Part shown: positions 1,285-16,120 of the stretch, piece by piece
How the letters are laid out: each line of letters opens with the position of its first letter
Position numbering within the stretch: position 1 is the stretch's first letter
Virus record (IMG/VR): IMGVR_UViG_2778261035_000013
Span: 1 to 16,120 of that record
Source: a virus
Lineage: Duplodnaviria > Heunggongvirae > Uroviricota > Caudoviricetes
Direction: 5' to 3' (one strand)
DNA length: 16,120 bases
Translations under genes and position numbers: made by a program
Notes under the pieces: model-generated
What the model was told of the DNA's origin: nothing
The model's input: the letters and a program-made list of their open reading frames with translations, nothing else
Database searches by the model: none

Positions 1285-2044
1285 GTGAGATGTAAGTTCT
1301 TGCCCCCAATTCGAATCTAAGGATTTAATAGCACCAGGGTCTAGAAAAACTGGTGTCAGTATCTAGTGGTATGTCAACGAAATCTAGATAAGCTTGAGAA
1401 CGATTAAGTTTGAAATATTCCGAAAAGCGCATAAAGACTCCTAAAAATCGAATGGTTTTTCAAAAAACATAACGCTATTAAAGAATCAACCAAAAATTGA
1501 TGAGATGGGGCACAGCTTAAGCAGAGAGATTCATGTTGAACGATTGAACTCATCATCTCAAGTAAAGATAAATATGGCAAGTACGTGGTTTGACGGTTGA
1601 GCAACCATTGATTGCTTCACCTATCAAAAAGTCGGATTAATATCAAGAAAGTTTAAAACACACCATCACTTAAAATCATTTAACGACGAAAATCGCACTA
1701 CACCGCACCCGCCTGCGGTTTTCATATCACTAAAATTTTTCAGTTGTGATTTTTTACAAACGATATCGCCAGCCCGCGCCCGCTCTGGGGATGCTCTGCG
1801 AGACAGGAACTGAAAAGAATGAAAAGAAATTCAGCTTTTTTCAGTTTTACTGTCCGTCATGTCTGTGGTCTGAATACGCAACACTATGATATTAAATGGA
1901 TAATTTATTTTAGGTGTGTGATTTTATGAAAATTTGTGAAACATGAAAAACATAACAACTTGAAAAATAATAATTTTATGTCCGTATAAACTGAAATCCT
2001 GTGTTCAGGTTTCGGGAACGGATCGGCCACTCCCGACGCATACT

Positions 2045-2317
2045 TTACCCATTTTTTTGCGCAGCCAGCAGCAACTTTAAAGCCTTTTCCCGCTCCTCGG
2101 GTGGAATGGCATCAATGAGCTCTTTAACCCTCCCCTGCCCGTTCAGCGCGCTTGGACTAACGGAATGGGAGAAAGCAACATTCATCACAAACGAGTGACC
2201 GCACTCCACATTAGAGCAATAGCAGTACACATCGTACAGTTGTGGGTGTTTCCTGTTTGTTTTACCTATCCGCGCTACTGCCTGACATGTGGGGCAGTAC
2301 ATTCTCATCATCTTCAT
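2045..2317 (-). CDS. ogr: Ogr/Delta-family zinc-finger late-gene transcription activator
   Basis: MYCPTCQ...(18 aa)...YCYCSNVECGHSF matches the CPxC...CxNVxCxxxF signature of P2 Ogr / P4 Delta. Several in-frame ATGs (2317, 2311, 2308, 2302), so the exact start is uncertain. Confidence 0.8.
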   Translation of the reverse strand: MKMMRMYCPTCQAVARIGKTNRKHPQLYDVYCYCSNVECGHSFVMNVAFSHSVSPSALNGQGRVKELIDAIPPEEREKALKLLLAAQKNG

Positions 2318-2385
2318 CGTTCTGTGCCCTATACTGTTGCCCGCCAGAGGAAGGGATTTGGAACCCTACCTCTTGTTCTGAACGC

Positions 2386-2574
2386 GTAACACTGGTAACA
2401 CGTGTAACATTATTGATTTAAAAGGATTTAATCTGTTACCAGTTAGCATAATCAAGAGGTAACGCGTGGTAACACACCATTTTTTGTTACCAGTGTTACC
2501 AGTCAGTATTTTTGACTGGTAACACTGAAGAACAGCATCAGTCGCGGGTGTTACCTCTGTTACCAGTGTTACCT
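2386..2574. repeat. iteron array (putative origin / cis replication region for the alpha primase-helicase)
   Basis: Eleven copies of the heptamer GGTAACA/TGTTACC in about 190 bp: forward at 2387, 2395, 2404, 2468, 2518; reverse at 2434, 2485, 2494, 2549, 2558, 2567; a near copy at 2458. Copies within clusters are spaced 8-9 bp. Lies between the alpha stop (2600) and the ogr start. Resembles the P4 type I iteron TGTTCACC. Confidence 0.65.
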
Positions 2575-2599
2575 CATAAAAATAAGACTCACGCGATAA

Positions 2600-5287
2600 T
2601 TACTCAGGTTCGGCGCTTCCCAGTACCTGTGTATTGAACTGGTACACACGTTTAAGCCCTATTTCTGGCAGGCGAATGCTGTTTTGCGTCCGGCCATCTT
2701 CACCGGGTTTCAGCCAGCCCGCGTCCACACACAACCTGGCCACCTTACGCGAGTCAAATCCCTTACAGATCTCCTTCCAGCCTGACGGGAGAACGTAGAA
2801 CGTCACAACCGGCTCCGTTACGTTGTCTCCTTTATCGACTTTTCTGAATCCCATCATTGAAACAGGCCGGTTCCTGTCGTCATTCCAGTCAGCAAACCGA
2901 CTGAACTGATTACGCGTCATGAAGTCCCGTACCTGTTCAAGTGCCGCTTTATCTTCCTGATTAGCTGTATGGCCACGGTCAGCCATCCATGCAGCCAGAC
3001 AACGTTGAGCGGCACGAAAGGCCTCTCCCTCCGGCCATCCTGTGATGCCCGCTTTTGTGGCCAGTTCCCCGGCCATCGCAACCAGAGCAAAACGGGTAAC
3101 AGCCCGGCCAACCTGATTCCCGGCATTTTCCGGCGTCAGCCTTCGGGTGTACTCTTTCAATAAGGCTTTCGCCTGGCTGGTCAGTTCCGGCAGTTCAGCG
3201 GTCAGGCAATGCAGCCAGTCGCGGAATGGTGCGCCATGATAATGCGCTACGTGCTGCTCAAGATGCTCAGCCAGGGTTTTCCCGCTACTGAAGCCATGAA
3301 GTTCTTCAAACACGCCATATTTGCCCGAATCGCTTGGGATCTGGATCATTCTGACCTCAACCCCGGCATACGTACGTTCCCCGGCGCTTGCGGCATGCTC
3401 TACCAGTGACAGTTCCCCGGTGGACAGAAACAACAGATTCCAGCGGTTGGTTTCCCTTACCGAACCATCTGTTCTTGCTCTGGCTTTGCCCTGCCCGTTA
3501 GCCAGCATATAAGCGATATTCCCCGCCTCCCTGCCGTCAACCTCCCGGATTTCATCGAGCATCAGCGTGGCATCATTGCGGCGGCTCGCCGTTCCTTCTA
3601 ATGCATTCCCCGTCGCCCGCCACGTATGCCAGAAATCTGTTCCACCACATACTGATGCAGCCACTTTCATCGTCGTGGTTTTACCGTCTGTTGATTCCCC
3701 TTTGAGGTGATAACCTCCACCGCCGATACCAACCAGTTTCAGAAGGGGGGCAGCAAATGCCAGACTCACCGCAAAGGCAAGACGGGCATTCTTTATGCAG
3801 TAACGGCCTATATTTTCACGCCAGTCCTCTGATGTGCCGCTGACACGAAAATCACGCCCCTGCACACTCGATGTTTGTAAGATGACTGACTGGGCTTCGC
3901 GCCCTATCACTTCATCCTGGAGAACGTAAACCCCGCCGTGCCAACCCGTTTTATTCACACAGGTTACTTTTCTGTCCGGTTTACACAGCGAGATATATTC
4001 CATCAGGAATGCTCTGGCCATACCGTTAATGTTGATGTAAGAAAGCCCGTTAACCAGCAGAACGCGGCGCAGTTCTTCCCCGCTGCCACCCAGCATCTCC
4101 ATCGGCATTGCCCATTTACGGCTGTTTCCGTTGGTATCTTCCCATTCCAGCAAACGCCCGTAATTACTTCCATCAGCATCACTGGTGATTGCCGTCACCC
4201 GCAACGGACTGCAAATTTTGATATTACGTATCTCTGTATCACCATCAGACTTATTAACCAGCTTGTCGTACCACAAATATTCTTTTGTCAGCCGGAACCC
4301 TTCTGGTAAACGGGTCTGCCCTTTGCCATGCAACGTCATTTCTTCACGAAAGGCATCTCTCGCCCGTTCTTTCCCCACTTCCTGCCGATAATCATCCCAG
4401 TCAGCCTTATGGCGTACCGGAGGGAGCGTTACCCAGCCATCCACCGCTTTGGCGGCTTTCTCTGCCTGAATACGCCCGGTGTTTTCTTTGCCGTCAGCCA
4501 GATCATTATCTCCTGCCACAATGATCCGGGTTTCCGGCCAGCGTTTTCGGATCTGCTCCGTCACCTTCAGTAAATTGGTGGCAGCGACAGCCGCCACGAT
4601 CCATCCTTCAGTCAGCAGACTGACGGTAAGCGCCGTGGCAAAACCCTCAGTGATAATCACCTGTTCAGGTGTTTCAGCGGGTATATCTGTCAGGGCAATG
4701 AATGCGCCAGACAGCTGGCTACCGGGCAGCAGACTTTTATCCCCGTCAGGATTGATAAGCTGGCCACCGGTAATATTCCCGGAAATATCCGTCAACGGCA
4801 GCAGTAATGAACCGGAGGAAAATGTTATTCCGGCCAGATTCAAAGGCTGTGACAGCAAGGGAAGTGAATACCCGTGTAAGCCCTTGTTTGTCAGATAGAC
4901 CGGCTCACCATTGCAGGACTGCTGTCTGAGTCGGGTATATCCCTCCGCGCCCGCTTCTTTTCCTGCTGCCTTTTTCCTGGCTGGCAAAGCGGGCTTCTCC
5001 TGTATTTCTGGTAATGCAAGCGCCTCAGATACCATCCCGGCGACTTCTTTTATCTTTCTCCCTGTCACCAGACGAACCAGGTCAAGACCATCGCCATGAC
5101 CGCACTGATTACAAAACCACGTCCCACGCCCCGCTTTATCGTCCAGCCGAAAGCGATCTTTTCCACCACAGGCAGGGCAAGCCCCATGATGTCCTGCGGA
5201 CGGTACTTTAATACCTAATGCTGACAGGATATAAGGCCAACGGCCAATTGCAGCCCCTGAAATTGTGGATACAGACGGTGTTTTCAC
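2600..5287 (-). CDS. P4 alpha-like bifunctional DNA primase-helicase (895 aa)
   Basis: N-terminal zinc ribbon CPACGGKDRFRLDDKAGRGTWFCNQCGHGDG, Toprim-like acidic motif IIVAGDNDLADG, Walker A P-loop GESTDGKTT in the C-terminal half. GTG start at 5287 overlaps the stop of the upstream ORF (GTGA). Confidence 0.9.
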   Translation of the reverse strand: MKTPSVSTISGAAIGRWPYILSALGIKVPSAGHHGACPACGGKDRFRLDDKAGRGTWFCNQCGHGDGLDLVRLVTGRKIKEVAGMVSEALALPEIQEKPALPARKKAAGKEAGAEGYTRLRQQSCNGEPVYLTNKGLHGYSLPLLSQPLNLAGITFSSGSLLLPLTDISGNITGGQLINPDGDKSLLPGSQLSGAFIALTDIPAETPEQVIITEGFATALTVSLLTEGWIVAAVAATNLLKVTEQIRKRWPETRIIVAGDNDLADGKENTGRIQAEKAAKAVDGWVTLPPVRHKADWDDYRQEVGKERARDAFREEMTLHGKGQTRLPEGFRLTKEYLWYDKLVNKSDGDTEIRNIKICSPLRVTAITSDADGSNYGRLLEWEDTNGNSRKWAMPMEMLGGSGEELRRVLLVNGLSYININGMARAFLMEYISLCKPDRKVTCVNKTGWHGGVYVLQDEVIGREAQSVILQTSSVQGRDFRVSGTSEDWRENIGRYCIKNARLAFAVSLAFAAPLLKLVGIGGGGYHLKGESTDGKTTTMKVAASVCGGTDFWHTWRATGNALEGTASRRNDATLMLDEIREVDGREAGNIAYMLANGQGKARARTDGSVRETNRWNLLFLSTGELSLVEHAASAGERTYAGVEVRMIQIPSDSGKYGVFEELHGFSSGKTLAEHLEQHVAHYHGAPFRDWLHCLTAELPELTSQAKALLKEYTRRLTPENAGNQVGRAVTRFALVAMAGELATKAGITGWPEGEAFRAAQRCLAAWMADRGHTANQEDKAALEQVRDFMTRNQFSRFADWNDDRNRPVSMMGFRKVDKGDNVTEPVVTFYVLPSGWKEICKGFDSRKVARLCVDAGWLKPGEDGRTQNSIRLPEIGLKRVYQFNTQVLGSAEPE

Positions 5288-5694
5288 AGCAGCACCTCCT
5301 GACCTTCCGGCTTCACAAATTCAAAACCTTCGGGTAGTTCGCCATCAGGTGCACCGAAAATAATATCCCGGTAAACCTCACGCATCTCTGTGACACCAAA
5401 AACTGACAGGCGAATATTTTCTGACATAAAGCCCGGTTTAAGCATCTTTTCCAGTTTCTCTGCGGCCAGTATGCAACCTGCATCAGCCCCAAATTCATTC
5501 ACCCACGGCATTTCAATATGGTAAATAATATTACTCACCACTTTTTCGTGGGTGAGTTCTATTCGTTCGCCATCTTCAATATAAACAGGTTCATTATGAA
5601 CACGCGCCATTAAGGAAATGAATGCATCAGCAATGTAATACCGTAAGACTGCTGTTCGTAAAGCATGCACCTTTAAATTTTGATTATTATTCAT
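5284..5694 (-). CDS. hypothetical protein (136 aa), alpha-operon member
   Basis: ORF with ATG start; start overlaps the stop of the upstream ORF by 8 nt and its stop overlaps the alpha start; backbone-like GC. Confidence 0.6.
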   Translation of the reverse strand: MNNNQNLKVHALRTAVLRYYIADAFISLMARVHNEPVYIEDGERIELTHEKVVSNIIYHIEMPWVNEFGADAGCILAAEKLEKMLKPGFMSENIRLSVFGVTEMREVYRDIIFGAPDGELPEGFEFVKPEGQEVLL

Positions 5695-5923
5695 CGCGCA
5701 TCACTCCCTTAATTGTGCTGGTTTCCTTAACAACGCCATCCAGTTGTTCGGCAATACAGGCCACTAAAGCCGCAGCGCCTTCCGCTGAAACAGTTCTCGC
5801 TCCATTCACTGTGGGAACGGACAGAACCTCTGCAAGAAATTCACTGGCCAGTGCCGCCCGTAACAGACGACTCTCACCCAGTTCACTCAATATGCAGCCT
5901 TGCTTAAAATTCATGGATTTCAT
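5687..5923 (-). CDS. hypothetical protein (78 aa), alpha-operon member
   Basis: ATG at 5923 overlaps the stop of the upstream ORF (ATGA); GGAGGTG Shine-Dalgarno 5 nt upstream. Confidence 0.5.
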   Translation of the reverse strand: MKSMNFKQGCILSELGESRLLRAALASEFLAEVLSVPTVNGARTVSAEGAAALVACIAEQLDGVVKETSTIKGVMRDE

Positions 5924-6123
5924 GCAACCACCTCCCCGGAGCTTTTCACAGGGATACGGGCAGCAAAGCTCAGGATAAATTCAGTGGCAAGTTTAAGGCG
6001 TGCAGCATGCTCGCAGTCTGCGATTACACGCACAGGACGTGGACGGGCATCACGGTCTGTACGGCGGACAGCCAGAAAGACAAAGGTAAATTCAGGGTGA
6101 GATAAAGCAGGGACTGTAGCCAT
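5920..6123 (-). CDS. hypothetical protein (67 aa), first gene of the alpha operon
   Basis: ATG at 6123 preceded by GAAGGAGG Shine-Dalgarno. The ORF-track ORF (5920..6609, 229 aa) extends upstream over the regulatory leader and terminator and is probably not translated there. Confidence 0.45.
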   Translation of the reverse strand: MATVPALSHPEFTFVFLAVRRTDRDARPRPVRVIADCEHAARLKLATEFILSFAARIPVKSSGEVVA

Positions 6124-6175
6124 AATGGCAACCTCCTTCAGATAGCGGGTAACGCTACCACCGGAGTTCCTACGC

Positions 6176-6342
6176 TCATGGGTGGTAGCCCAGACGGGGG
6201 TAGGAATACCGGCTCTGAAGGATACCGGCCAGCCCGAAAGCTGCCCCGCCTGGACTACCATAATACTGATGATGTGGCGTAAAAAATAAAAAAATACAAT
6301 CAGCCACCACACCATAAATTTTAGGTGAGTCAAAGCTGCGAC
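6176..6342 (-). ncRNA. candidate CI/C4-like immunity antisense RNA (boundaries approximate)
   Basis: Region between the intrinsic terminator and the operon RBS that contains the inverted (seqB-like) motif copy at 6199..6224; no coding potential with RBS seen. By analogy with P4 CI RNA and P1/P7 C4 RNA. Ends not determinable from sequence. Confidence 0.3.
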
Positions 6343-6367
6343 ACAAAAAAACACGCCTGGCGCGTGT
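6343..6367 (-). terminator. rho-independent terminator
   Basis: On the minus strand: ACACGC / GCCAG loop / GCGTGT followed by TTTTTTT (plus-strand A-run at 6345..6351). Confidence 0.6.
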
Positions 6368-6563
6368 AGTATCGCCTTCAGATAACACGGGTTCCTACGC
6401 CCGGCTGCCGATTTTGCGGCAACCTTTAAACTATATCCCGTGCATTCCTGGTGAGGCAAGAAATTTATAACCGAAAACTGATCATTGCCTGGATTAATTA
6501 ACGCTGGCATGCTTAAGCCTCTGCTTAAAAATAGTTCTTCATTTTTTCCTGATGCTGTAAACG

Positions 6564-6585
6564 AGACCCGCCTCTGAGCGGGTCT
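6564..6585 (-). terminator. hairpin immediately 3' of the capsid gene (putative terminator)
   Basis: Perfect 8-bp stem AGACCCGC/GCGGGTCT with 6-nt loop, 13 nt after the capsid stop; the T-rich tract is on the plus-strand side only, so function as a minus-strand terminator is uncertain. Confidence 0.35.
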
Positions 6586-6598
6586 TTCTGTCGCTAAG

Positions 6599-7603
6599 TC
6601 AATCCGCAAACGTCAGAGCGCTCTCATCGACAGCCGCGTACAGTTCTGGTTCACCGAGTGCATAGCCTTCATTGCGCAGGTAGGAATGTACGTATTCACT
6701 GTTTTCATCATCAAACTCAGCACGAAACCAGCGTGTTATCGCCTGGGTGTATATATGCAGATTATCCAGCGTCGTTACTGCCAGACGCTTACCCGGCATA
6801 AACGGGGGAATAAACGCAAAGCGGCCAGCAACAGAACTTGTAGCCATCTGTGCAGCATTCACATCAGCCGGGCGGTCTGCGGCATTAAATAACTTCAGGC
6901 GTTGATGTGCTGCCAGCTCTGCCCCAACTAGTACAACCAGACGGGGATCTTCACGAAACTGCTCAGCAATAAGCTCAGTAATCAGATGGTTGGCCAGAGA
7001 ATCAATATTTTTCCAGGTGCCAGTCTCTCCCAGAGTGACAGGCTCAGAGATGATTTGCTTCCCGTTTCCGTAGGCTTTCGCCAGTGCATGCCAGCCAATA
7101 TTGACATCCTCGCCTTTTTTATTGATTTCCGGGTTTGTAGTATTTGCAATCGACACACCATTGAAACCGATCCGCAGCATATCCAGCGCATATGCCTGAG
7201 CAAAAAAGCTCTCAACCGTTTTCTCAAACTCATCCGGCACGCCGGTATGGTAAATATGAGACATATCGGAATAGCTGATCCGGGCGCAGGTATCCGTCTC
7301 TGTCAGAAAGAACTCCGTACCATTGATTGCTATTTTTTTGTGGAAACGGCCACCATCCGCACGTCCGGTATGCAGTTCACTGGCACCAATATTGACGGCA
7401 TTACCTGACACGGCGTTAACATCACGTAGCGTGATATTTTTAATAAGCCAACCGGATTCCAGAATTGAGGTACGCAGTATATTTTCAGTGGGTTCGCTTA
7501 ATGCAAAGCGTCTGTTTGATTCCTCCTGATAGTTAGTGCCAGTAACGAATTTATTATGATAACGACGTGCTGCGTCCGGCCTTTCAGTTTTGAAGGCATA
7601 CAT
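6599..7603 (-). CDS. P2 gpN-like major capsid protein (334 aa; HK97 fold inferred)
   Basis: Recognisable similarity to P2 gpN as recalled from memory: N-terminal RFALSEPTENILRTSILESGWLIKNITLRDV vs KFTVEPSVTQTLMNTMQESSDFLTRINIVPV; GFNGV; NIGW vs AVGW; EDPRLVVLVGAELAA vs EDPDLVVIVGRQLLA; LDNLHIY vs LENLSIY. ATG start with GGTGA RBS. Confidence 0.75.
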   Translation of the reverse strand: MYAFKTERPDAARRYHNKFVTGTNYQEESNRRFALSEPTENILRTSILESGWLIKNITLRDVNAVSGNAVNIGASELHTGRADGGRFHKKIAINGTEFFLTETDTCARISYSDMSHIYHTGVPDEFEKTVESFFAQAYALDMLRIGFNGVSIANTTNPEINKKGEDVNIGWHALAKAYGNGKQIISEPVTLGETGTWKNIDSLANHLITELIAEQFREDPRLVVLVGAELAAHQRLKLFNAADRPADVNAAQMATSSVAGRFAFIPPFMPGKRLAVTTLDNLHIYTQAITRWFRAEFDDENSEYVHSYLRNEGYALGEPELYAAVDESALTFAD

Positions 7604-7625
7604 AGTTTTTCACCTTTTTTAGTAT

Positions 7626-8498
7626 TTAAGAAAAGATTTTATTTTTGTACTCAGTAACCCGATTGTATTTCATTACATGCTCAACATAATCCCGGTCACT
7701 TACGACTGAACGTAATACATAATTATCTGCTCGATAGTACTCCCTGTAAGCCATGACTCTTGCCATTCCACCGTTATTTAATACATAACGATCAGTTGGA
7801 ACGCTACAACGGCTAATAATTTCATTCACAGAATCAGACAAAGATTTGAGTGCATCTGTAATAAATTTAATATCACGAACAACGTCACCGTCATTAAACA
7901 CAGAAATAAAATCAGCAGGGATCTGGCCGGATTGAGGAAATATGCTCAGTAAACGCTTCTCAACTCCCTTACCAATGTAGTTAACTTCATCGGCCAGTAC
8001 GCCCGGTAAAAGCTTGATTGTGCTCAGTCGGTTATGTTGCTCATTCAGCCGGGAAACAGCCAGATGGTAACACCGTTCAGCATCCGCTCGTTCAGCATGC
8101 CCCGTTTTATTCGTTTTGGCTTCAGCAATGCTACTGACGCCGTTTTTTGAGAATGTGCTTTTCCATGCAACTTCCGCATTTGTCACTTCACGCTGCCGGA
8201 AAGATAACTCTTCCTCTTCCTGACGACACAACTGGGCATACCGGCTTAGGAGTAGGTTGATCTCATTCGCCACAGCTTCCGTATCAGGTACTGTTAATCC
8301 CGTAAGTGAATACAGCTTTTCACCTTTAGCGCGCAGCTTATTTAATGAAAATATTTCAATAATTCGCACAATACATGCAGTGTCGCTATGAGTTTCTTTA
8401 AACGGACTTACTTTATAGTTTCCTAACACGGAAACATATTCATTCTTAATTGGAAGGGATATGTATTGACTCCCCGCCGGTTGTAGACGGTAATTCAT
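7626..8498 (-). CDS. hypothetical AT-rich protein (290 aa) immediately upstream of the capsid gene
   Basis: ATG with GAGGAG Shine-Dalgarno; 22-bp gap to the capsid gene; central region rich in charged/helical sequence (LLLSRYAQLCRQEEEELSFRQREV...); lower GC than flanking backbone. Confidence 0.6.
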   Translation of the reverse strand: MNYRLQPAGSQYISLPIKNEYVSVLGNYKVSPFKETHSDTACIVRIIEIFSLNKLRAKGEKLYSLTGLTVPDTEAVANEINLLLSRYAQLCRQEEEELSFRQREVTNAEVAWKSTFSKNGVSSIAEAKTNKTGHAERADAERCYHLAVSRLNEQHNRLSTIKLLPGVLADEVNYIGKGVEKRLLSIFPQSGQIPADFISVFNDGDVVRDIKFITDALKSLSDSVNEIISRCSVPTDRYVLNNGGMARVMAYREYYRADNYVLRSVVSDRDYVEHVMKYNRVTEYKNKIFS

Positions 8499-8534
8499 AT
8501 AAACTCCTCATAAATTCTTCTAATACTAATGTTT

Positions 8535-8735
8535 TTACTCTGAAGAATGACTATCACGCCAAGCATAGTAGTCACCAGCACGCCATCGGGACATACGACC
8601 TAACTTGATTGGTTTAGGAAAACGTCCCAGAGAAATCAGTTTATAAATCCATTTATCAGTAAACAGACAATCAGATGTAATGAATTTCATATCAATGAGC
8701 GAGTCAGCAGAAGGACGATTATCAGTAAACCCCAT
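8535..8735 (-). CDS. alpA: AlpA-family phage transcriptional regulator / excisionase-like (66 aa)
   Basis: Motif LGRFPKPIKLGRMSRWRAGDYYAW matches the AlpA FPKPxKLG...W signature. ATG at 8735 preceded by AGAGAGGAA; the ORF-track start at 8759 is a TTG extension. Confidence 0.75.
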   Translation of the reverse strand: MGFTDNRPSADSLIDMKFITSDCLFTDKWIYKLISLGRFPKPIKLGRMSRWRAGDYYAWRDSHSSE

Positions 8736-8800
8736 AATGAGTTCCTCTCTATGTATCAATCTATATCAACGAAGAGGATTAAAACATCGTTCAAAAACAT

Positions 8801-8835
8801 AAAAAAGGCGAGTAAGAAAAATTTCCTTACTCACC
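8801..8835 (-). terminator. rho-independent terminator after the int-proximal cargo gene
   Basis: Stem 8807..8816 / 8826..8835 (GGCGAGTAAG vs GGTGAGTAAG, one mismatch) with 9-nt loop, followed on the minus strand by TTTTTT (plus A-run 8801..8806). Confidence 0.5.
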
Positions 8836-8842
8836 AAAATTG

Positions 8843-9631
8843 TTAATTTTTTGTAAATGATGGTTTCTTGAATATAGATGATATTAGTTTGCTAATAATT
8901 GGGTGTGATAGCGGAGGCTCTTTTTTATCAGGCCAAAATTCCTCAGCCCGACTAAAGATAAGGTCAGCAAGGGCTGCTGCATTTTCCTTTCGGTATGCCA
9001 TGTCCTCTTTATAAAGATATAATGCTACACTTAGAATCTCATTTCTCTTGGTAGCATGTCTTTCTTGCTGTGCAATTGATAACGATTTATATTTATCATT
9101 AGAAACATCACCATTTAATATCAGATGCAATTTCTTTACATCTTCCCGCTCCAGGTACGCATCTCCCTCATATCCAAACCCATCATCATTTTTCCAGTCA
9201 ATTTGAATATATTTGACCATTTCAGAATAGGTGGTACCAGTAGGAGACAACAATGATGGGTACTCCGGGAACTGCCCCTCATAAAAAACGAAATCACTTT
9301 TAACTTTTGGTGGCATTTGGAAATAGCCTTTTGTACTCGCCAGCACTAGTTTTTTATCTTTTTTAACTTCATTAATCTTAATCAAACTAAACTCAGATAT
9401 ATAACTAAAACCATCTTTATCTTTTTTCAAAGAGTTTATATTCTGAATAAAAGAGTCCACATCTCTTACTTTATGCTTTGAAAAAGACCATCGCCCACAC
9501 ATTCTTAGCGACAATTGAATGTCTTTTTCATCCGCAATATAAATAACATCTTGCTCATCGCAGCCCAATATTTTAGCGGCCTCACTAATACTATAATGAG
9601 TTCTATGAAGCTTGAGAGTATTATTTACCAT
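8843..9631 (-). CDS. hypothetical AT-rich cargo protein (262 aa) between int and alpA
   Basis: ATG start 3 bp after the integrase stop; N-terminal helix-turn-helix-like stretch YSISEAAKILGCDEQDVIY; followed by a terminator; AT-rich. Confidence 0.6.
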   Translation of the reverse strand: MVNNTLKLHRTHYSISEAAKILGCDEQDVIYIADEKDIQLSLRMCGRWSFSKHKVRDVDSFIQNINSLKKDKDGFSYISEFSLIKINEVKKDKKLVLASTKGYFQMPPKVKSDFVFYEGQFPEYPSLLSPTGTTYSEMVKYIQIDWKNDDGFGYEGDAYLEREDVKKLHLILNGDVSNDKYKSLSIAQQERHATKRNEILSVALYLYKEDMAYRKENAAALADLIFSRAEEFWPDKKEPPLSHPIISKLISSIFKKPSFTKN

Positions 9632-9634
9632 TAC

Positions 9635-10816
9635 TCAAGACTCCGTTCCACCAATAAAATCACTGTACCATTGCATCATTTCCCGACGCCCATCAAGATA
9701 CTGAGCATGATTATATATCCCCCGAATAGCATTTTTATCCAAATGTGCAAGCTGGGTTTCAATCCATGCACTATTGAAGCCTTTTTCATGCAAAATAGTG
9801 CTCATTGTGTGTCTGAAACCATGGCCAGTAACTCGGCCAGCATATCCAATACGCTTAAAGACCTGATTAATACTGGCCTCACTCATGCACTTACTTGGAT
9901 CGTTGCGCCCTGGAAACATCAAAGGATAGTTTCCAGTCAGTTCTTTTAATGTTTCAAGATGGGCTAATGCTTGATTTGAAAGCGGCACAATATGAGCACG
10001 TCGCATTTTCATACGTTCTTTAGGAATCTCCCACACCGCATTATCAAAATCCACCTCACGCCACTCACCTGCTCTTAGTTCTCCTGTTCTTAGACCCGTC
10101 AGGATAAGTAAATGTGCCCCCAGCAATACAATTGGGCTTCCTGAATAAGCGTTAAGGGCAGTAAAGAACTCCGGCAGCTCGTTGGCTTTGAGGAATGGAT
10201 AGTGGACTGCTTCATGTCCTTGCATCGCACTGGCAAGATCCGGTGCAGGATTGTAGATTGCTCTACCCGTTACGATGGCATAGCGGAAAACTTCACCGCA
10301 TCGCTGACGGACTTTCTTCGCTTTCTCCATAGCGCCTCGTGCTTCTATCAACCTCAGTACTTCAAGAAGTTCTAGGGGCTGAATATCGGCTATAGGTTTG
10401 TGTCCAATATGCGGGAAAATGTCTTTCTCAAACGCCTCAATGATGTCTGAAGCATAGCCCTCAGACCATTTGGGAGATTTCATTTTGTGCCACTCTAACG
10501 CCACTTCTCTGAATGGGTTAAGTGTCTCGATCGCTGCGTTTAAAGCATGCTTCTTTGCTTTTTTCACTTCGCCAGGATCTTCACCTGCTGCGAGTAGTTT
10601 CTTTGCGTCTTCGCGTTTTTGTCTGGCATCTGCGAGGGTGACTGTTGGATAGACACCAAAGGACAAGCGCTTCTCTTTACCAGCAAAACGGTACTTCATA
10701 CGCCAGTAACGCGAGCCATTAGGTTCAACCTGAAGGTACAGGCCACCTCCATCAGATAGCTTATAGCTCTTCTCTTTTCCTTTAGCGGCTTCAACCTTGC
10801 GAGCATTCAGCATCAT
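9635..10816 (-). CDS. int: P4-family tyrosine integrase
   Basis: N-terminus KSYKLSDGGGLYLQVEPNGSRYWRMKYRFAGKEK typical of P4-type integrases; C-terminal catalytic region with ...HGFRHT... and ...LAHLD...YNHAQY... consistent with the R/H/R/Y tyrosine-recombinase motifs; adjacent to the tRNA fragment. Start placed at the ATG at 10816; the ORF-track start at 10885 is TTG. Confidence 0.9.
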   Translation of the reverse strand: MMLNARKVEAAKGKEKSYKLSDGGGLYLQVEPNGSRYWRMKYRFAGKEKRLSFGVYPTVTLADARQKREDAKKLLAAGEDPGEVKKAKKHALNAAIETLNPFREVALEWHKMKSPKWSEGYASDIIEAFEKDIFPHIGHKPIADIQPLELLEVLRLIEARGAMEKAKKVRQRCGEVFRYAIVTGRAIYNPAPDLASAMQGHEAVHYPFLKANELPEFFTALNAYSGSPIVLLGAHLLILTGLRTGELRAGEWREVDFDNAVWEIPKERMKMRRAHIVPLSNQALAHLETLKELTGNYPLMFPGRNDPSKCMSEASINQVFKRIGYAGRVTGHGFRHTMSTILHEKGFNSAWIETQLAHLDKNAIRGIYNHAQYLDGRREMMQWYSDFIGGTES

Positions 10817-10980
10817 TGGGGGCACATTTCCTAGACCGAACAGAACATGCCCCCGATTGTGCCCCCAATTGTATGTTGATTTCAAGAGATAGGGGTTGAC
10901 GTCAAATGACGAAGAATCGCGTAATATCTATGTTTTTAAAGGGCTTTGTTGATTTGAGATGACTTGGAAATACTAAGGGA

Positions 10981-11026
10981 TGGTGCCGATAATAGGAGTC
11001 GAACCTACGACCTTCGCATTACGAAT
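10981..11026 (-). other. 46-nt 3' fragment of tRNA-Thr(CGU) (thrW-like): att core / displaced tRNA 3' end, not an intact tRNA
   Basis: Minus strand reads ATTCGTAATGCGAAGGTCGTAGGTTCGACTCCTATTATCGGCACCA, matching a thrW-type tRNA from the anticodon loop to the CCA end; the match breaks at 11027, so the 5' half of the tRNA is absent. Confidence 0.7.
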
Positions 11027-11356: not shown

Positions 11357-12172
11357 TTAATTGATATTTTGGGATATTTCTCTCAAGTATGGTTCAACCT
11401 CTGGGCGTTGCATATGATGCTTCATTGAGTCAAGAAAGGTTATGGGGGTTTGCATTACATCTACTTTAGATTTATTTTTCCTAATGAGAGTCATTCCTTT
11501 GCAAGTTTCTAAATATTCCTTAACTAAAGCTTTCTTTCGATTTCTATGCAAATCGCCTTTAAAAGCTAGAATATGAAAAATTGCGGCACCAATTACAATC
11601 TGTTTCACCGCGCATTCGGATGATTCGAATTCGCCCCATGAAATTCGACCAAAGAAAGGATTCGCATATCCAGAAGGATGCGCTTTGAGGTTATGGCCAT
11701 ATTTTAGCATTTCCGATGGTGTCAATTTTAATGGTTTAAACAACCCAGCCGAAATTGCAAAGTCTGAAAAGTCAGAACTCAACCCCAAAATAACATCTTT
11801 GTATTTATCAAAAAAAGACAATTTCTTCTCACTAGCCCTAGATGAATTAAATGCAACTTTAAGTAGCCAGCGAGAAAGCAAGCTATAATTATAATCGATA
11901 TTAACTTTTTCTTTTAAAAAACACTCTGTAAAGAAACCAGAGCGCTCTAGCATATTTTTGACATAACCATCTAAATTACATAGAACTACGTTATTACAAT
12001 GAAAACAAACATCTTTTATTTTAGCCTCACCACTTATCATTTTTTTTGATTTTTCTTGCCATCCTATAGTTTTCCCAGATGCTGTACTATATTGATATTC
12101 ATAGATGAAAGACGGGAGTATATGTTCTCTAGTCATTTTCCCTTCCTGACCACAATATATGCAAGTGCTCAT
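11357..12172 (-). CDS. hypothetical AT-rich protein (271 aa) with N-terminal HNH-like nuclease motif
   Basis: CIYCGQEGKMTREHILPSF...VCFHCNNVVLC gives a CxxC...EH...CxxC-N HNH-like arrangement in the first ~65 aa; ATG with AAGGA RBS; AT-rich. Confidence 0.6.
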   Translation of the reverse strand: MSTCIYCGQEGKMTREHILPSFIYEYQYSTASGKTIGWQEKSKKMISGEAKIKDVCFHCNNVVLCNLDGYVKNMLERSGFFTECFLKEKVNIDYNYSLLSRWLLKVAFNSSRASEKKLSFFDKYKDVILGLSSDFSDFAISAGLFKPLKLTPSEMLKYGHNLKAHPSGYANPFFGRISWGEFESSECAVKQIVIGAAIFHILAFKGDLHRNRKKALVKEYLETCKGMTLIRKNKSKVDVMQTPITFLDSMKHHMQRPEVEPYLREISQNIN

Positions 12173-12497: not shown

Positions 12498-13202
12498 TTA
12501 TTCTTGCTTTTTGGGAGGTTTTGGGTGTTTCTCAGGTAATTTTTCTGCAATCTTAAATACCCCCTCATCTTTTAGTATTGTTCGCATTACAAAATTTTCT
12601 ATAATTACCAAAAGTGATTTAAATTCAGCTTCGTTCGGTGACCATGCCCTGTGTGCTGCTGAGTTGCCAGCTTCGGTTACAATTTTAAGTTGGCTCCTTT
12701 CTGTTTCCCCAATAAAACCTTCCTCTTTAAGAATGTCAACCTTCTGGCCTAATGTATGTCCTGGGTGAATATTTAAAACTTCGACTGTTCTGTCAAAAAT
12801 AGTTCTGAGCCCAATTGCCGCTAAAATGAGTGATTTATTTTGAAATGCAATATACATTTCGTTCATTATCACATAAAGCTGATAATCTTTGCTTAATATC
12901 TCGCCAAACCAAGTGGGTCTAATCTCTTCTTGCTCTTGCGTAGGATATGTTGATATATGATAGTTATATACTATACAATCATAGCCTGACTCATCTCTTT
13001 CATAGTCGTAATCTTCACTATGACGGGATTTAATATATGTAAATATTCCGTCGCATCCCATGCACTCTAATAATTTGTATTCACTTTCAGCCCAAAAATA
13101 GTTGTCCCCATCCCCCTCGCTCCATTCTCTTTTTTTATAACCTATTGTGTGACAATTTTTTTCACCTTTACAGTATGGACAAGGCGCTTTGATTTTTTCC
13201 AT
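12498..13202 (-). CDS. hypothetical AT-rich protein (234 aa) with N-terminal zinc ribbon
   Basis: CPYCKGEKNCH...CMGCDG Cys cluster; C-terminal region with a GNSAAH motif loosely reminiscent of DUF4145/HEPN-like domains (unverified); ATG start without a clear Shine-Dalgarno. Confidence 0.5.
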   Translation of the reverse strand: MEKIKAPCPYCKGEKNCHTIGYKKREWSEGDGDNYFWAESEYKLLECMGCDGIFTYIKSRHSEDYDYERDESGYDCIVYNYHISTYPTQEQEEIRPTWFGEILSKDYQLYVIMNEMYIAFQNKSLILAAIGLRTIFDRTVEVLNIHPGHTLGQKVDILKEEGFIGETERSQLKIVTEAGNSAAHRAWSPNEAEFKSLLVIIENFVMRTILKDEGVFKIAEKLPEKHPKPPKKQE

Positions 13203-13572: not shown

Positions 13573-14127
13573 TCATTTATCTCCGACCGGAAACATCTTA
13601 TACAGTGTCGATACACCAACATCATAGATGATCGCCACCTTTTGGCGAGGAACGCCTGATGCAATTAATCGCCCGGCCTGCGCCCATTGTTCTGGTGTAA
13701 GTTTGGGACGACGTCCACCAATTCGTCCCTGCGCGCGAGCAGCTTCCAGTCCAGCTTTTGTTCGTTCAACAATCAGTTCTCGTTCCATTTCAGCCAAGGC
13801 ACCCATCACATGAAAGAAAAAACGCCCCATCGGTGTGCTGGTATCAATAGCATCCGTCAGGCTGCGAAAATTAACGCCACGTTCGCGCAACTCCTCAACT
13901 AGAATGACCAAATGCCGCATACTACGCCCCAGCCGATCCAGCTTCCAGACAACCAGTGTGTCACCTGCCGATAATGTCCTGAGCAGTTTTTTCAGTCCGG
14001 GCCTTTCGGACTTCGTACCGCTTATCTTGTCTTCAAAAATCAGCTCGCATCCTGCACAGTTCAGCGCATTACGTTGTAGATCTGTGTTCTGGTCATTTGT
14101 TGACACACGTACATAGCCAATAAGCAT
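13573..14127 (-). CDS. pin: Pin/Gin/Hin-family serine DNA invertase
   Basis: MLIGYVRVSTNDQNTDLQ...LVVWKLDRLGRSM...FRSLTD...MGRFFFHVMGALAEMERELI matches e14 Pin / Mu Gin (catalytic Ser in VRVST). Start placed at the ATG at 14127; the ORF-track start at 14163 is an upstream extension. Confidence 0.9.
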   Translation of the reverse strand: MLIGYVRVSTNDQNTDLQRNALNCAGCELIFEDKISGTKSERPGLKKLLRTLSAGDTLVVWKLDRLGRSMRHLVILVEELRERGVNFRSLTDAIDTSTPMGRFFFHVMGALAEMERELIVERTKAGLEAARAQGRIGGRRPKLTPEQWAQAGRLIASGVPRQKVAIIYDVGVSTLYKMFPVGDK

Positions 14128-14181
14128 GGTAGATCTCCCTGACAAAAGCAGGAATGATGCCATTTGCTCGTTATTTCTGCA

Positions 14182-14207
14182 TTTTCATAAACGTTGGTTT
14201 GAGAGAA
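14182..14207. other. left crossover site (pix/gix/hix-like) of the invertible segment
   Basis: TTTTCATAAACG TT GGTTTGAGAGAA has the 12+2+12 quasi-palindromic layout of Hin-family sites (compare hix TTATCAAAAACC AA GGTTTTTGATAA). Its inner half is an inverted repeat of the window end: the first 13 nt, GGTTTGAGAGAAG, match the reverse complement of 16108..16120 at 12 of 13. Confidence 0.55.
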
Positions 14208-14648
14208 GCGGCAAAACGAAATGTGGGCAACGGGGAAAACCAAATCCCTGATATGTCTTTCTGGACGGTTACTGGTGGCAATGGAAATTTTGTGATTCGT
14301 CAACCTGACGGGCTAATCATTCAGATGGTTACTGTAAGTATAAGCGGTCCAGTGGCGATGAATGGAATGACTGATAATGCTTATGCCATTACAGGTTCTA
14401 ATAAGTCTTATATTGCCACAGCCACATTGCCCTTTGTATTTCCTAATAAGGTGCTGGGCGTTATCCCTCTGGTATCAACAACAGCTTATGGTGGTGTATC
14501 CAGTAATATTACAGGTTCATACGCGACGGCGGTTTGTTCTTTTGCCGCTGTCAGGGGGAATAATACGATTGTGTTCAAAGTCGACAAACCACTGAATGCA
14601 GCCTTTCCTTCAGATACCAGCGTCTCAGCGTTAATCATTGGACGGTAA
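14196..14648 (+). CDS. tail fibre variable C-terminal cassette (currently promoterless/silent orientation)
   Basis: Reading frame begins inside the left crossover site (GLREAAKRNVGNGEN...); the upstream in-frame codons of the ORF-track ORF (from 14154) lie in the pin promoter region; followed directly by a tail-fibre assembly gene. Confidence 0.6.
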   Translation, partial: GLREAAKRNVGNGENQIPDMSFWTVTGGNGNFVIRQPDGLIIQMVTVSISGPVAMNGMTDNAYAITGSNKSYIATATLPFVFPNKVLGVIPLVSTTAYGGVSSNITGSYATAVCSFAAVRGNNTIVFKVDKPLNAAFPSDTSVSALIIGR

Positions 14649-14650
14649 TA

Positions 14651-15094
14651 ATGAACTCAGTATTCTTTTCACCCGGAAGTAAAAGTTTTTATCTGCAAGA
14701 ATTGTTTCCAGAATATGAGGATGCGGGAACGCTTCCTGATGATGTTATTGAAATTACCAGAGAAACATATGAGCAATTTCTTGGTCTGCATCCAGAAGGG
14801 AAAGAAATTGGCGCTGACAGTTCAGGACGGCCAATATGGATTAATTCCCCACCCCCTTCAAAAGAGGATGAGGTGTTGACGGCTGAAATGAAAAAAATAT
14901 CTTTGGTTTCAGAAGTCAATACCTACATCAATACCCATCAGTGGCCTGGCAAAGCTGCTATTGGTCGTCTGAAAGGCGAGGAACTGGCGCAATATAATTC
15001 GTGGCTGGATTATCTGGACGCACTGGAACTGGTCGATACTTCCTGTGCGCCAGATATTGAATGGCCTACGCCTCCGGCAGTTCAGGCCAGATGA
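14651..15094 (+). CDS. tail fibre assembly protein (147 aa) of the silent cassette
   Basis: ATG 2 nt after the upstream stop; C-terminal half AAIGRLKGEELAQYNSWLDYLDALELVDTSCAPDIEWPTPP parallels the C-terminus of the opposite assembly protein (TRLNAVLDYIDAVTATNTSTAPDVIWPELP). Confidence 0.7.
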   Translation: MNSVFFSPGSKSFYLQELFPEYEDAGTLPDDVIEITRETYEQFLGLHPEGKEIGADSSGRPIWINSPPPSKEDEVLTAEMKKISLVSEVNTYINTHQWPGKAAIGRLKGEELAQYNSWLDYLDALELVDTSCAPDIEWPTPPAVQAR

Positions 15095-15668
15095 CATCCG
15101 GCGCTGTGCTGGTATTTGTTGCCGTCACCGCGTCAATGTAATCCAGCACAGCGTTAAGCCGGGTTGTTTCTGCCTGCATCAGCTTCCGTCCGGCCTGTAA
15201 TTTCAGCTGAATCAGACCGATGGAAGCCATTGCAGCATCAATCAGTGACTGACGCTGTGCTTCTGCCGCGTCTACTGCGGCGCTATGCTGTGCCTCAGTA
15301 TCGGTCACCCATTTCTCACCATCCCATTTATCGTATGGCGTTAATGGGGCAATAGTGGTTGTATTTTCGGGGTAATCACCCGGTGCTGTGATCTGTTTTG
15401 ATTCTCCCGTTTCGGTGTTATAGACGATTTCACCGCGATGGTCTGGCACATATTCCCATGAATTTAAATTCACAGAACGACAGATAGCATAACCTGCCTT
15501 ATGTATACCTGGTGCATCCAGACAGGAATATGCCGGGATACCAACACCAACGGCAAGATATTCACTTGAAGTGGAAATATATTCCCGAGTTTCACCATCA
15601 TAGTTATAAACGGTAATATCCCCTGCCTTTGTAGCAACAAGTCCACTATTTAATATTGCTTTATCCAT
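15066..15668 (-). CDS. tail fibre assembly protein (200 aa) of the expressed cassette
   Basis: ATG overlaps the stop of the upstream fibre ORF (TAATG); Tfa/U-like size and C-terminal motif; convergent 29-bp overlap with the other assembly gene. Confidence 0.75.
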   Translation of the reverse strand: MDKAILNSGLVATKAGDITVYNYDGETREYISTSSEYLAVGVGIPAYSCLDAPGIHKAGYAICRSVNLNSWEYVPDHRGEIVYNTETGESKQITAPGDYPENTTTIAPLTPYDKWDGEKWVTDTEAQHSAAVDAAEAQRQSLIDAAMASIGLIQLKLQAGRKLMQAETTRLNAVLDYIDAVTATNTSTAPDVIWPELPEA

Positions 15669-16120
15669 TATGCTGCTCTCACGATATAGTTAAATGCAAT
15701 GTTGCGTGGACGGGTATCGACGGGGTTAACGGCCACTGTACCCGACACGGACTGGTCATTACCGTTGCTAACGGTAATGTTACTACTGGTTGATCCAATC
15801 CCTACTGAATCGGTAAATTTAGCACCTGAGCCGCTCAAAGTTCCCGAGATGATAGCTAGCCCCACATAAAAAGTACCTACAGTTGGCTCTTGTGTTGACA
15901 GCACCGCACGCCTTGAATCAACGCCGCGCCCATCATCCCAGCCACGAATAAACTCACCACGTAAATCAGGCAATTTATTTGTCGGATAAGCCTTTGCCAG
16001 TTCCGGGTATTCTTCAGCAGAAAAAGCCGCACCGTTGCATTTCAGCCAGCCTGTTGGCGGTGTGGCTGAAGGCCATGGAACAGGCACACCAACAGGTAAT
16101 GCAGAGCCTTCTCCCAAACC
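15668..16120 (-). CDS. tail fibre protein, variable C-terminal part; 5' partial (constant part lies beyond the window)
   Basis: Frame is open to the window edge (the track's M at 16117 is TTG). Contains PVGVPVPWP...GWLKCNGAAFSAEEYPELAKAY, which looks like the collar motif of Mu/P1/e14-type fibre tips. Reading frame passes through the right half-site. Confidence 0.75.
   Translation of the reverse strand, partial: GLGEGSALPVGVPVPWPSATPPTGWLKCNGAAFSAEEYPELAKAYPTNKLPDLRGEFIRGWDDGRGVDSRRAVLSTQEPTVGTFYVGLAIISGTLSGSGAKFTDSVGIGSTSSNITVSNGNDQSVSGTVAVNPVDTRPRNIAFNYIVRAA

What the first reader, a model, noticed from the sequence alone, without database searches (positions are those of the whole stretch)
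13573..16120. Pin-type invertible tail-fibre switch whose right crossover site is cut by the window end
Seen in sequence: a serine invertase gene lies 55 bp from a hix-like site (14182..14207) whose inner half is an inverted repeat of the last bases of the window. Inside are two convergent cassettes (fibre tip plus assembly protein). The minus-strand tip ORF is open through the site to the window edge, so in the present orientation the 15668..16120 tip and the 200-aa assembly protein are the expressed pair and the plus-strand pair is silent. Both tips encode G-L-x-E at the junction.
Basis: partly seen in the sequence, partly recalled or inferred. Interest (0 to 1): 0.4.

Follow-up and report, generated by a model that had tools for sequence, protein, structure and literature searches.

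The report
Pin-type invertible phage tail-fibre switch

Summary
A 184-aa serine invertase gene (13573..14127, minus strand) is 95.6% identical to K-12 PinE and 77% to Mu Gin. It lies 54 bp from a 26-bp hix-type site (14182..14207, TTTTCATAAACG-TT-GGTTTGAGAGAA). The last 13 bases of the window are the inverted copy of that site's inner half (12/13).

Two public E. coli loci identical to the window continue rightward into the rest of the right site (CTCTCGAAAACC-TT-) and a 97-aa constant fibre part. That part is 96% identical to the e14 StfP N-terminus.

A third locus, 99.3-99.9% identical, carries the same 1.9-kb segment inverted, with the exchange mapped to TTGGTTTG. Exact-protein counts in public assemblies show both orientations: about 40 contigs as in the window and 7-15 inverted.

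Either orientation gives an in-frame 247-aa fibre followed by its own assembly chaperone. One tip has a Collar domain, the other a gp53-like domain.

The element is an e14-family P segment at the end of a prophage with a Mu-type baseplate, inserted at thrW. Its tips differ from those of K-12.

One caveat: the pin-proximal copy has its own ATG. A 2025 paper reports anti-phage activity for the equivalent e14 ORF when produced from a plasmid, so "silent" is unproven.

This is a new member of a known kind and of low interest.

The parts
13573..14127 (-). pin: a 184-aa serine DNA invertase of the Hin/Gin/Cin/Pin group
   Evidence: Pfam Resolvase E 8.9e-52 and HTH_7 E 1.7e-13. Mu Gin structures 3UJ3 and 4M6F match at E 8e-93 over residues 1-181. 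95.6% aa identity to K-12 PinE and 77% to Mu Gin. Catalytic Ser9 is present. The basic residues K46/K47/R50 and Q150/R153/L154, which correspond to the Hin residues that contact Fis and the enhancer, are kept (residue list from PMC3798978).
14043..14106 (-). Candidate recombinational enhancer inside the pin 5' coding region: two Fis-core-like 15-mers, GTGTCAACAAATGAC (14092..14106) and GTGCAGGATGCGAGC (14043..14057)
   Evidence: Both have the G-N13-C form. Their centres are 49 bp apart, and the proximal centre is about 95 bp from the hixL centre. PMC3798978 gives about 100 bp for hin and a TAATG tract between the sites; TAATG is present here at 14067..14071. The block is nearly identical in K-12 pinE and largely conserved in Mu gin. 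This rests on position and homology only; Fis binding was not tested.
14128..14181 (.). 54-bp spacer between pin and the crossover site. It holds the ATG ATG (14154/14157) that opens an ORF running through the site into the pin-proximal tip.
   Evidence: The same leader (MMPFA.YF.IFINVGL) is present in K-12 e14 stfE. No sigma-70-like promoter was found in the spacer on either strand.
14182..14207 (.). Left crossover site (hix/pix type): TTTTCATAAACG | TT | GGTTTGAGAGAA
   Evidence: It is the only match in the window to the invertase-site pattern, with 0 mismatches and 0.07 expected. The breakpoint of the natural inversion in L009 maps inside TTGGTTTG of this site.
14196..14648 (+). Tip B: alternative fibre C-terminus of 150 aa, gp53-like. 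It is pin-proximal, so it is not joined to the constant part in this orientation.
   Evidence: Pfam Gp53-like_C E 3.6e-5, 24.6 bits, just under the 24.9 cut-off. PHROG 12714 E 8e-48 and tail-fibre PHROGs. In L009 it is fused in frame to the constant part, giving a 247-aa protein.
14651..15094 (+). Tail-fibre assembly chaperone for tip B, 147 aa
   Evidence: Pfam Caudo_TAP E 6e-28. PHROG 188 E 8e-55.
15066..15668 (-). Tail-fibre assembly chaperone for tip A, 200 aa, TfaE-like. It overlaps the convergent chaperone gene by 29 bp.
   Evidence: Pfam Caudo_TAP E 4e-30. PHROG 105 E 3e-95. About 89% nucleotide identity to K-12 tfaE.
15668..16120 (-). Tip A: fibre C-terminus of 150 aa with a Collar domain, open to the window edge. 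It is joined to the constant part in this orientation.
   Evidence: Pfam Collar E 8.6e-16. The first 66 aa are identical to K-12 StfE and the distal part diverges. In the identical locus L007 it is the C-terminus of a 247-aa fibre.
16108..16120 (-). Inner half of the right crossover site (GGTTTGGGAGAAG on the minus strand). The TT core and the outer half lie just beyond the window.
   Evidence: The full right site CTCTCGAAAACC|TT|GGTTTGGGAGAA was read in L007, L004 and L001.

Best explanation
This is a Pin/Gin-type invertible tail-fibre (host-range) switch at the distal end of an e14-family temperate prophage with a Mu-type baseplate, inserted at thrW.

Pin dimers bind two 26-bp sites in inverted orientation. 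One site is 14182..14207. The window holds only the inner half of the other, at 16108..16120. By analogy with Hin and Gin, the dimers probably synapse on a Fis-bound enhancer in the 5' end of pin. They cut at the central TT and exchange strands, inverting about 1.93 kb.

The fibre gene is split by the right site. A 97-aa constant N-terminus lies outside the segment, just right of the window and read leftward. It is joined in frame to one of two unrelated 150-aa tips: Collar type or gp53-like type. Each tip is followed by its own assembly chaperone.

In the window's orientation the Collar tip and the 200-aa chaperone are the expressed pair.

Shown: the parts, the sites, the reading frames and natural inversion between strains. 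Inferred: Fis dependence, the promoter lying outside the segment, and the change in receptor specificity.
For: - Invertase identity and key residues: with the residue list from PMC3798978.
- The left site is unique in the window and matches the family pattern. The inverted inner half sits at the window edge.
- L004 and L007 are 100% identical to the window over 5.1 and 13.6 kb. They continue into the outer half of the right site and the constant part.
- L009 has collinear flanks at 99.3-99.5% identity and the 1,939-bp segment inverted at 99.9%. The A/G polymorphism in the inner half-site travels with the segment, and the outer halves stay in place. This confines the exchange to TTGGTTTG, which includes the core.
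- Both fusions are in-frame 247-aa proteins.
- Exact-sequence counts in public assemblies: constant+tip A on 39 contigs, constant+tip B on 7, leader+tip B on 43, leader+tip A on 15.
- The gene order baseplate J / gp48 / fibre / Tfa / Tfa' / tip' / invertase is the same as in phage Mu.
- The constant part is 96% identical to the e14 StfP N-terminus.
- The e14 P segment inverts in culture (PMC4272514; PMC12529663).
- A relative (GF3-3) carries a complete-looking prophage of about 37 kb with this module at thrW.
Against: - The window itself lacks the outer half of the right site and the constant part. These are read only in identical or related loci.
- No read-level data show flipping within one culture of this strain.
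- The Fis sites are candidates only. A synonymous-site comparison with Mu gin did not single out the enhancer region.
- No receptor or host-range data exist for either tip.
- The completeness of the prophage in the source genome is unknown. One related locus (L006) has terminase directly adjacent to the DNA-circularisation and baseplate genes where the others have the tape-measure gene, so some copies may be defective.
Confidence: 0.9

Rival explanations
1. The switch mainly serves the host as an anti-phage device, instead of or in addition to changing virion host range. The pin-proximal ORF (ATG 14154/14157, leader plus gp53-like tip B, 163-164 aa) would be made on its own and would mask surface receptors, as reported for e14 StfE2. 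Inversion would then toggle which truncated tip is produced.
For: The window's pin-proximal ORF has the same leader and the same domain type (gp53-like C-terminus) as K-12 StfE2. Kirigo et al. 2025 report that StfE2, produced from a plasmid, blocks T2 adsorption, and that P-segment inversion protects cells (PMC12529663).
Against: Tip B shows no significant BLASTP similarity to the e14 StfP tip. The AGGA lies 0-3 nt from the ATGs, which is poor spacing. No promoter-like site lies in the spacer. In the sections I read, the StfE2 effect came from plasmid expression. A related strain carries a complete-looking prophage, for which a virion host-range role is sufficient.
Confidence: 0.1
2. The switch is a fossil. 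The parts are recognisable but inversion no longer occurs, or it has no consequence because the prophage is defective, as with e14 in K-12.
For: One related locus (L006) has terminase directly adjacent to the DNA-circularisation and baseplate genes where the others have the tape-measure gene. The archetype e14 is itself cryptic. The source genome's prophage cannot be seen beyond the window.
Against: Pin is full length with all the catalytic and Fis-contact residues that were checked. Both sites are intact in the identical loci. Both orientations exist with identical protein alleles and between loci 99%+ identical. Even cryptic e14 still inverts in culture. All four cassette ORFs are intact.
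Confidence: 0.05
3. The 13-nt inverted match at the window edge is a coincidence, and the segment is a fixed pair of convergent fibre cassettes.
For: A generic repeat search did not rank the pair among many 12-22-nt chance pairs.
Against: The targeted pattern is found only at these two places, with none expected by shuffling. The full partner site is present in identical loci. A natural inversion has breakpoints exactly there.
Confidence: 0.01

Closest known systems
e14 P segment with PinE of E. coli K-12 (stfP-tfaP-tfaE-stfE-pinE; Plasterk and van de Putte 1985, and Mehta et al. 2004, both as cited in PMC4272514)
   Same: Pin is 95.6% identical in protein and 91% in DNA. The spacer, leader ORF and crossover sequence are the same: the paper's TTGGTTTGGGAGAAGG against TTGGTTTGAGAGAAG here. 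The constant part is 96% identical. The TfaE-like chaperone is about 89% identical in DNA. The tip pairing is the same, Collar against gp53-like. Segment size is similar, about 1.93 kb against 1.797 kb.
   Different: Tip B and most of its chaperone have no detectable DNA or BLASTP similarity to the StfP tip and TfaP. Tip A diverges from StfE after residue 66. The element sits at thrW, in tandem with a P4-like satellite, not at icd. DUF4145 and unknown genes occupy the position of mcrA. Relatives are complete-looking prophages rather than a 15-kb remnant. The window is in the opposite orientation to the MG1655 reference.
Phage Mu G segment with Gin (S-U / S'-U')
   Same: The gene order is identical: baseplate gp47, gp48, split fibre gene, two convergent tip-plus-chaperone cassettes, and the invertase immediately outside. 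Gin is 77% identical. The site half GGTTT/AAACC and the 5' coding block of the invertase gene are conserved.
   Different: The Mu segment is about 3 kb with a 169-aa constant part and about 330-aa tips. Here the segment is 1.93 kb with a 97-aa constant part and 150-aa tips. The rest of the phage is not Mu-like: relatives have an HK97-type head, lambdoid/e14 regulators and an integrase at thrW.
Salmonella Hin/hix H segment and P1 Cin/C segment (Fis-dependent DNA invertases)
   Same: The same recombinase family, a 26-bp site with a 2-bp core, and an enhancer expected in the invertase 5' coding region about 100 bp from the nearby site (PMC3798978). The Fis-contact residues are conserved.
   Different: Hin flips a promoter for flagellin rather than exchanging coding tips. 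Cin flips a larger segment. Neither was compared at sequence level here.

Membership tests
Fis-dependent serine DNA invertase systems (Hin/Gin/Cin/Pin) | A small serine recombinase with an N-terminal catalytic domain, the nucleophilic Ser at position 9/10, and a C-terminal helix-turn-helix | tested here: met
   Resolvase plus HTH_7. Ser9 present. Gin structures match at E 8e-93.
Fis-dependent serine DNA invertase systems (Hin/Gin/Cin/Pin) | Two 26-bp crossover sites (12-bp imperfect half-sites around a 2-bp core) in inverted orientation flanking the segment, with matching cores | tested here: met
   The left site is complete in the window. The right site is only half present in the window but complete, with the same TT core, in the 100%-identical loci L004 and L007.
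Fis-dependent serine DNA invertase systems (Hin/Gin/Cin/Pin) | Invertase residues that contact Fis and the enhancer (Hin K47/R48/K51 basic patch; Q151, R154, L155) | tested here: met
   Pin K46/K47/R50 and Q150/R153/L154. The residue list is from PMC3798978.
Fis-dependent serine DNA invertase systems (Hin/Gin/Cin/Pin) | A cis-acting enhancer with two Fis sites in the 5' part of the invertase gene, about 100 bp from the nearby site | tested here: inconclusive
   Two G-N13-C 15-mers lie 49 bp apart, with the proximal one about 95 bp from the site centre. They are conserved in pinE and Mu gin. Fis sites are degenerate, the region is coding, and the synonymous-site test was not discriminating.
Fis-dependent serine DNA invertase systems (Hin/Gin/Cin/Pin) | The segment actually inverts | tested here: met
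   Shown between strains: L009 against L007 is a clean inversion, and both fusion proteins occur as exact sequences in public assemblies. Flipping within one culture could not be tested.
e14-type P segment | PinE-like invertase, StfP-type constant part, TfaE-type chaperone, and Collar against gp53-like tips | tested here: met
e14-type P segment | The same tip alleles and the same chromosomal element as K-12 e14 (at icd, with mcrA next to pin) | tested here: not met
   Tip B is unrelated to the StfP tip by BLASTP. Tip A diverges after residue 66. The locus is at thrW, with DUF4145 and unknown genes next to pin.
Multi-site shufflon-like inversion systems (more than two crossover sites) | Additional crossover sites inside the segment | tested here: not met
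   No further site at up to 3 mismatches. There are exactly two sites in each full locus.

The most novel reading that the evidence does not exclude
The pin-proximal copy is not silent. The ORF 14154/14157..14648 (15-aa leader plus gp53-like tip B) would be produced by the lysogen and would block adsorption of other phages, as claimed for e14 StfE2. The switch would then toggle a host defence phenotype, with different tips masking different receptors across E. coli strains.
Probability: 0.1. Interest if true: 0.45.

Novelty: new member of a known kind. Interest (0 to 1): 0.15.

Why it matters
It matters little beyond correct annotation. The locus is a textbook invertible host-range cassette, and RefSeq already labels its homologues pinE and tfaE.

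It does explain two practical things. Gene callers report a 163-aa 'hypothetical protein' next to pin, and its fusion to the constant part (constant part + tip B) is likewise deposited as a 247-aa 'hypothetical protein'. Draft assemblies also break exactly at this site.

The set of near-identical loci with different tips, and the same tips on two different constant parts, is a tidy natural example of cassette exchange. It could be used to test the recent claim that the pin-proximal tip ORF has an anti-phage role.

Tried and rejected
- **Generic repeat search.** It did not list the 13-nt inverted pair among its top 25, because the longest exact run is 6 nt. I replaced it with targeted pattern searches.
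- **Extra internal crossover sites (shufflon-like).** None were found.
- **Synonymous-site conservation as a test for an enhancer embedded in pin.** Against Mu gin the 5' codons are not clearly more conserved. Against pinE codons 1-70 are, but that could be recombination mosaicism. Inconclusive.
- **Orientation counts with chimeric 600-nt queries in complete E. coli genomes.** 158 genomes have pin next to tip B and 799 have pin next to tip A. These mix different prophages, so they are not a clean ratio. The exact-protein look-up replaced them.
- **Fetching annotated records.** CP099279.1 and CP050198.1 are not in the collection.
- **Literature look-ups.** Three papers were not held or not found: the Johnson review, the Mehta e14 paper and a paper listing hin Fis-site sequences. 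The Fis-core form used here (G-N13-C with an A/T-rich centre, about 48 bp spacing) therefore rests on my own knowledge.
- **Promoter and terminator scan.** Counts were not above shuffles, and nothing was found in the pin-hix spacer.
- **PADLOC on the two genes left of pin.** No hits.
Full report
**What is in the window**

The window is E. coli DNA. Bases 1..11026 are 100% identical to a P4-like satellite inserted at the thrW tRNA-Thr gene next to proA in strain TK3887. A partial copy of the tRNA 3' end lies at about 10982..11026 and forms the junction (no intact tRNA). From about 10979 to the end, the window is 100% identical to two public E. coli loci, L004 (CP099279.1) and L007 (GCA_053778815.1). 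In those loci this stretch is the distal end of a prophage with a Mu-type baseplate.

**Checking the observation**

- **Invertase.** The gene is 13573..14127 on the minus strand (184 aa). The longer ORF reaching 14163 is an artefact. It has Resolvase and HTH_7 domains and matches the Mu Gin crystal structures at E 8e-93. It is 95.6% identical to K-12 PinE and 77% to Gin.
- **Left site.** 54 bp upstream of the pin start lies TTTTCATAAACG-TT-GGTTTGAGAGAA (14182..14207). This is the only match in the window to the hix/gix-type pattern, with zero mismatches and 0.07 expected.
- **Right half-site.** The 13-mer GGTTTGRGAGAAG occurs exactly twice, at 14196 (+) and on the minus strand at the last 13 bases of the window. 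None is expected by shuffling. A generic repeat search did not rank this short pair, so on length alone it would not stand out.
- **Cassettes.** Tip B (14196..14648, +) has a weak Gp53-like_C match and strong tail-fibre PHROG matches. Its 147-aa Caudo_TAP chaperone is at 14651..15094 (+). A 200-aa TfaE-like chaperone is at 15066..15668 (-). Tip A (15668..16120, -) has a Collar domain and is open to the window edge.
- **Junction residues.** They are G-L-R-E and G-L-G-E.

**Beyond the window**

In L007 and L004 the sequence continues into the TT core, the outer half-site CTCTCGAAAACC and a 97-aa constant N-terminus. That N-terminus is 96% identical to the first 100 residues of e14 StfP. The window therefore ends exactly between the inner half-site and the core dinucleotide. 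The gene order upstream is baseplate J, Mu gp48/YmfQ, fibre, Tfa, Tfa', tip', invertase. This is the order in phage Mu itself.

**Does it flip?**

Locus L009 has flanks collinear with L007 at 99.3-99.5% identity. Its central 1,939 bp are inverted at 99.9% identity.

The single A/G difference between the two inner half-sites moves with the segment, and the two different outer halves stay put. The exchange is therefore confined to TTGGTTTG, which contains the central TT. That is where serine invertases of this family cut (established knowledge; PMC3798978 describes the Hin reaction).

Both orientations give in-frame 247-aa fibres. An exact-sequence look-up in public assemblies gave these counts:

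| Protein | Orientation | Contigs |
|---|---|---|
| Constant part + tip A | as in the window | 39 |
| Leader + tip B | as in the window | 43 |
| Constant part + tip B | inverted | 7 |
| Leader + tip A | inverted | 15 |

For the archetype e14, co-existing orientations in clonal cultures have been shown by sequencing, PCR and qPCR (PMC4272514; PMC12529663).

**Mechanism**

Shown:
- an intact invertase with Ser9;
- the basic helix-B residues (K46/K47/R50) and Q150/R153/L154, which correspond to the Hin residues that contact Fis and the enhancer;
- two proper sites with matching cores;
- in-frame tip exchange.

Inferred: a Fis-bound enhancer in the pin 5' coding region. Candidates are GTGTCAACAAATGAC (14092..14106) and GTGCAGGATGCGAGC (14043..14057). 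Their centres are 49 bp apart, and the proximal one is about 95 bp from the site centre. This resembles the spacing of about 100 bp in hin, and the block is conserved in pinE and Mu gin. The Fis-core form used is from my own knowledge, and the synonymous-site test was not discriminating. Transcription from outside the segment, and a change in receptor specificity, are also inferred by analogy with Mu.

**The 'silent' copy**

The pin-proximal tip is preceded by ATG ATG at 14154/14157 in the spacer. This gives a 163-164-aa ORF that gene callers report as a hypothetical protein. It is the structural equivalent of e14 stfE/StfE2.

Kirigo et al. 2025 report that e14 StfE2 (leader plus the gp53-like StfP tip) blocks T2 adsorption. 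In domain terms the window's current state corresponds to that 'inverted' K-12 state: Collar tip on the constant part, gp53-like tip next to pin.

However, tip B is not detectably similar to the StfP tip. The Shine-Dalgarno spacing is poor, and no promoter-like site lies in the spacer. The StfE2 assays I read used plasmid expression. I therefore keep this as a minor rival.

**Comparison and novelty**

This is an e14-family P segment: the same invertase, site, leader, constant part and TfaE-type chaperone. Its tips are different, and it sits in a different chromosomal element, at thrW rather than icd. Relatives there are complete-looking prophages of about 37 kb with an HK97-type head, a contractile tail and e14-like regulators. 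Architecturally it is a miniature Mu G segment. It has no extra internal sites. I classify it as a new member of a known kind, of low interest.

Noticed in passing
window 16108..16120 (right edge); proteins P0015, P0016, P0012 and others: The window ends exactly at the boundary between the inner half-site and the core. Public draft assemblies hold many contigs of about 1.7-2.0 kb carrying partial tips, and the two 150-aa ones read (P0015, P0016) start exactly at G-L-G-E. The invertible segment is therefore often assembled on its own. This suggests assembly-graph breaks at the sites, as expected if cultures are mixed in orientation or if the constant part is repeated in another prophage. Contigs of 2-5 kb are also the commonest class carrying the neighbouring DUF4145 gene; att-to-hixL is 3.2 kb.
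   Followed up: partly
L008 8417..9046 (CP050198.1, a 5.66-Mb chromosome): Pin, the spacer and the left site are 99.5% identical to the window up to 14208. The site is then fused in frame to the C-terminal part (profile positions 165-271 of 271) of a TsiV type VI immunity gene instead of a fibre tip. No second site lies within 20 kb. This looks like a Pin-site-mediated rearrangement or deletion that removed the prophage.
   Followed up: partly
L005 and L006 8636..9046, compared with window 14255..14942: Loci with flanks about 99% identical to the window carry a different pin-proximal tip (136 aa, clear Gp53-like_C match). The adjacent part of the chaperone gene also does not match the window. 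Cassettes are swapped within an otherwise identical element.
   Followed up: partly
proteins P0007 and P0025: The same two tips also occur fused to an unrelated 113-aa constant N-terminus (MAKNDFKAFATD...). The junction [26 protein letters not shown] is the same, and both fusions exist (43 and 4 contigs). The invertible module is therefore shared between different phage backbones. P2-like phages with a related invertase module appear.
   Followed up: no
window 11357..12172 (-) and 12498..13202 (-): Two cargo genes lie between the att junction and pin, in the position mcrA occupies in e14. One is a 271-aa protein with no Pfam or PADLOC match. The other is a 234-aa DUF4145 protein (PHROG 1305, 'DNA binding protein'). 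In GF3-3 the same position holds a DUF4365 protein and other small genes, so this is a variable cargo hotspot.
   Followed up: partly
window 1..~11026: A P4-like satellite sits in tandem with the prophage at thrW. It carries an integrase, a DUF927 primase, an Icd-like gene, a P2-family capsid gene and an Ogr/Delta gene, with a partial tRNA-Thr copy at about 10982..11026 as the shared junction. Its first ORF (1..1284, minus; 477 aa as annotated in TK3887) matches the PADLOC candidate defence family PDC-M36A at E 1e-43. The window begins exactly at that gene's stop codon.
   Followed up: partly
window 15066..15094: The two convergent chaperone genes overlap by 29 bp at their 3' ends. A terminator-like hairpin (15098..15112, +) follows the plus-strand stop inside the other gene, but terminator counts are not above shuffles.
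   Followed up: no
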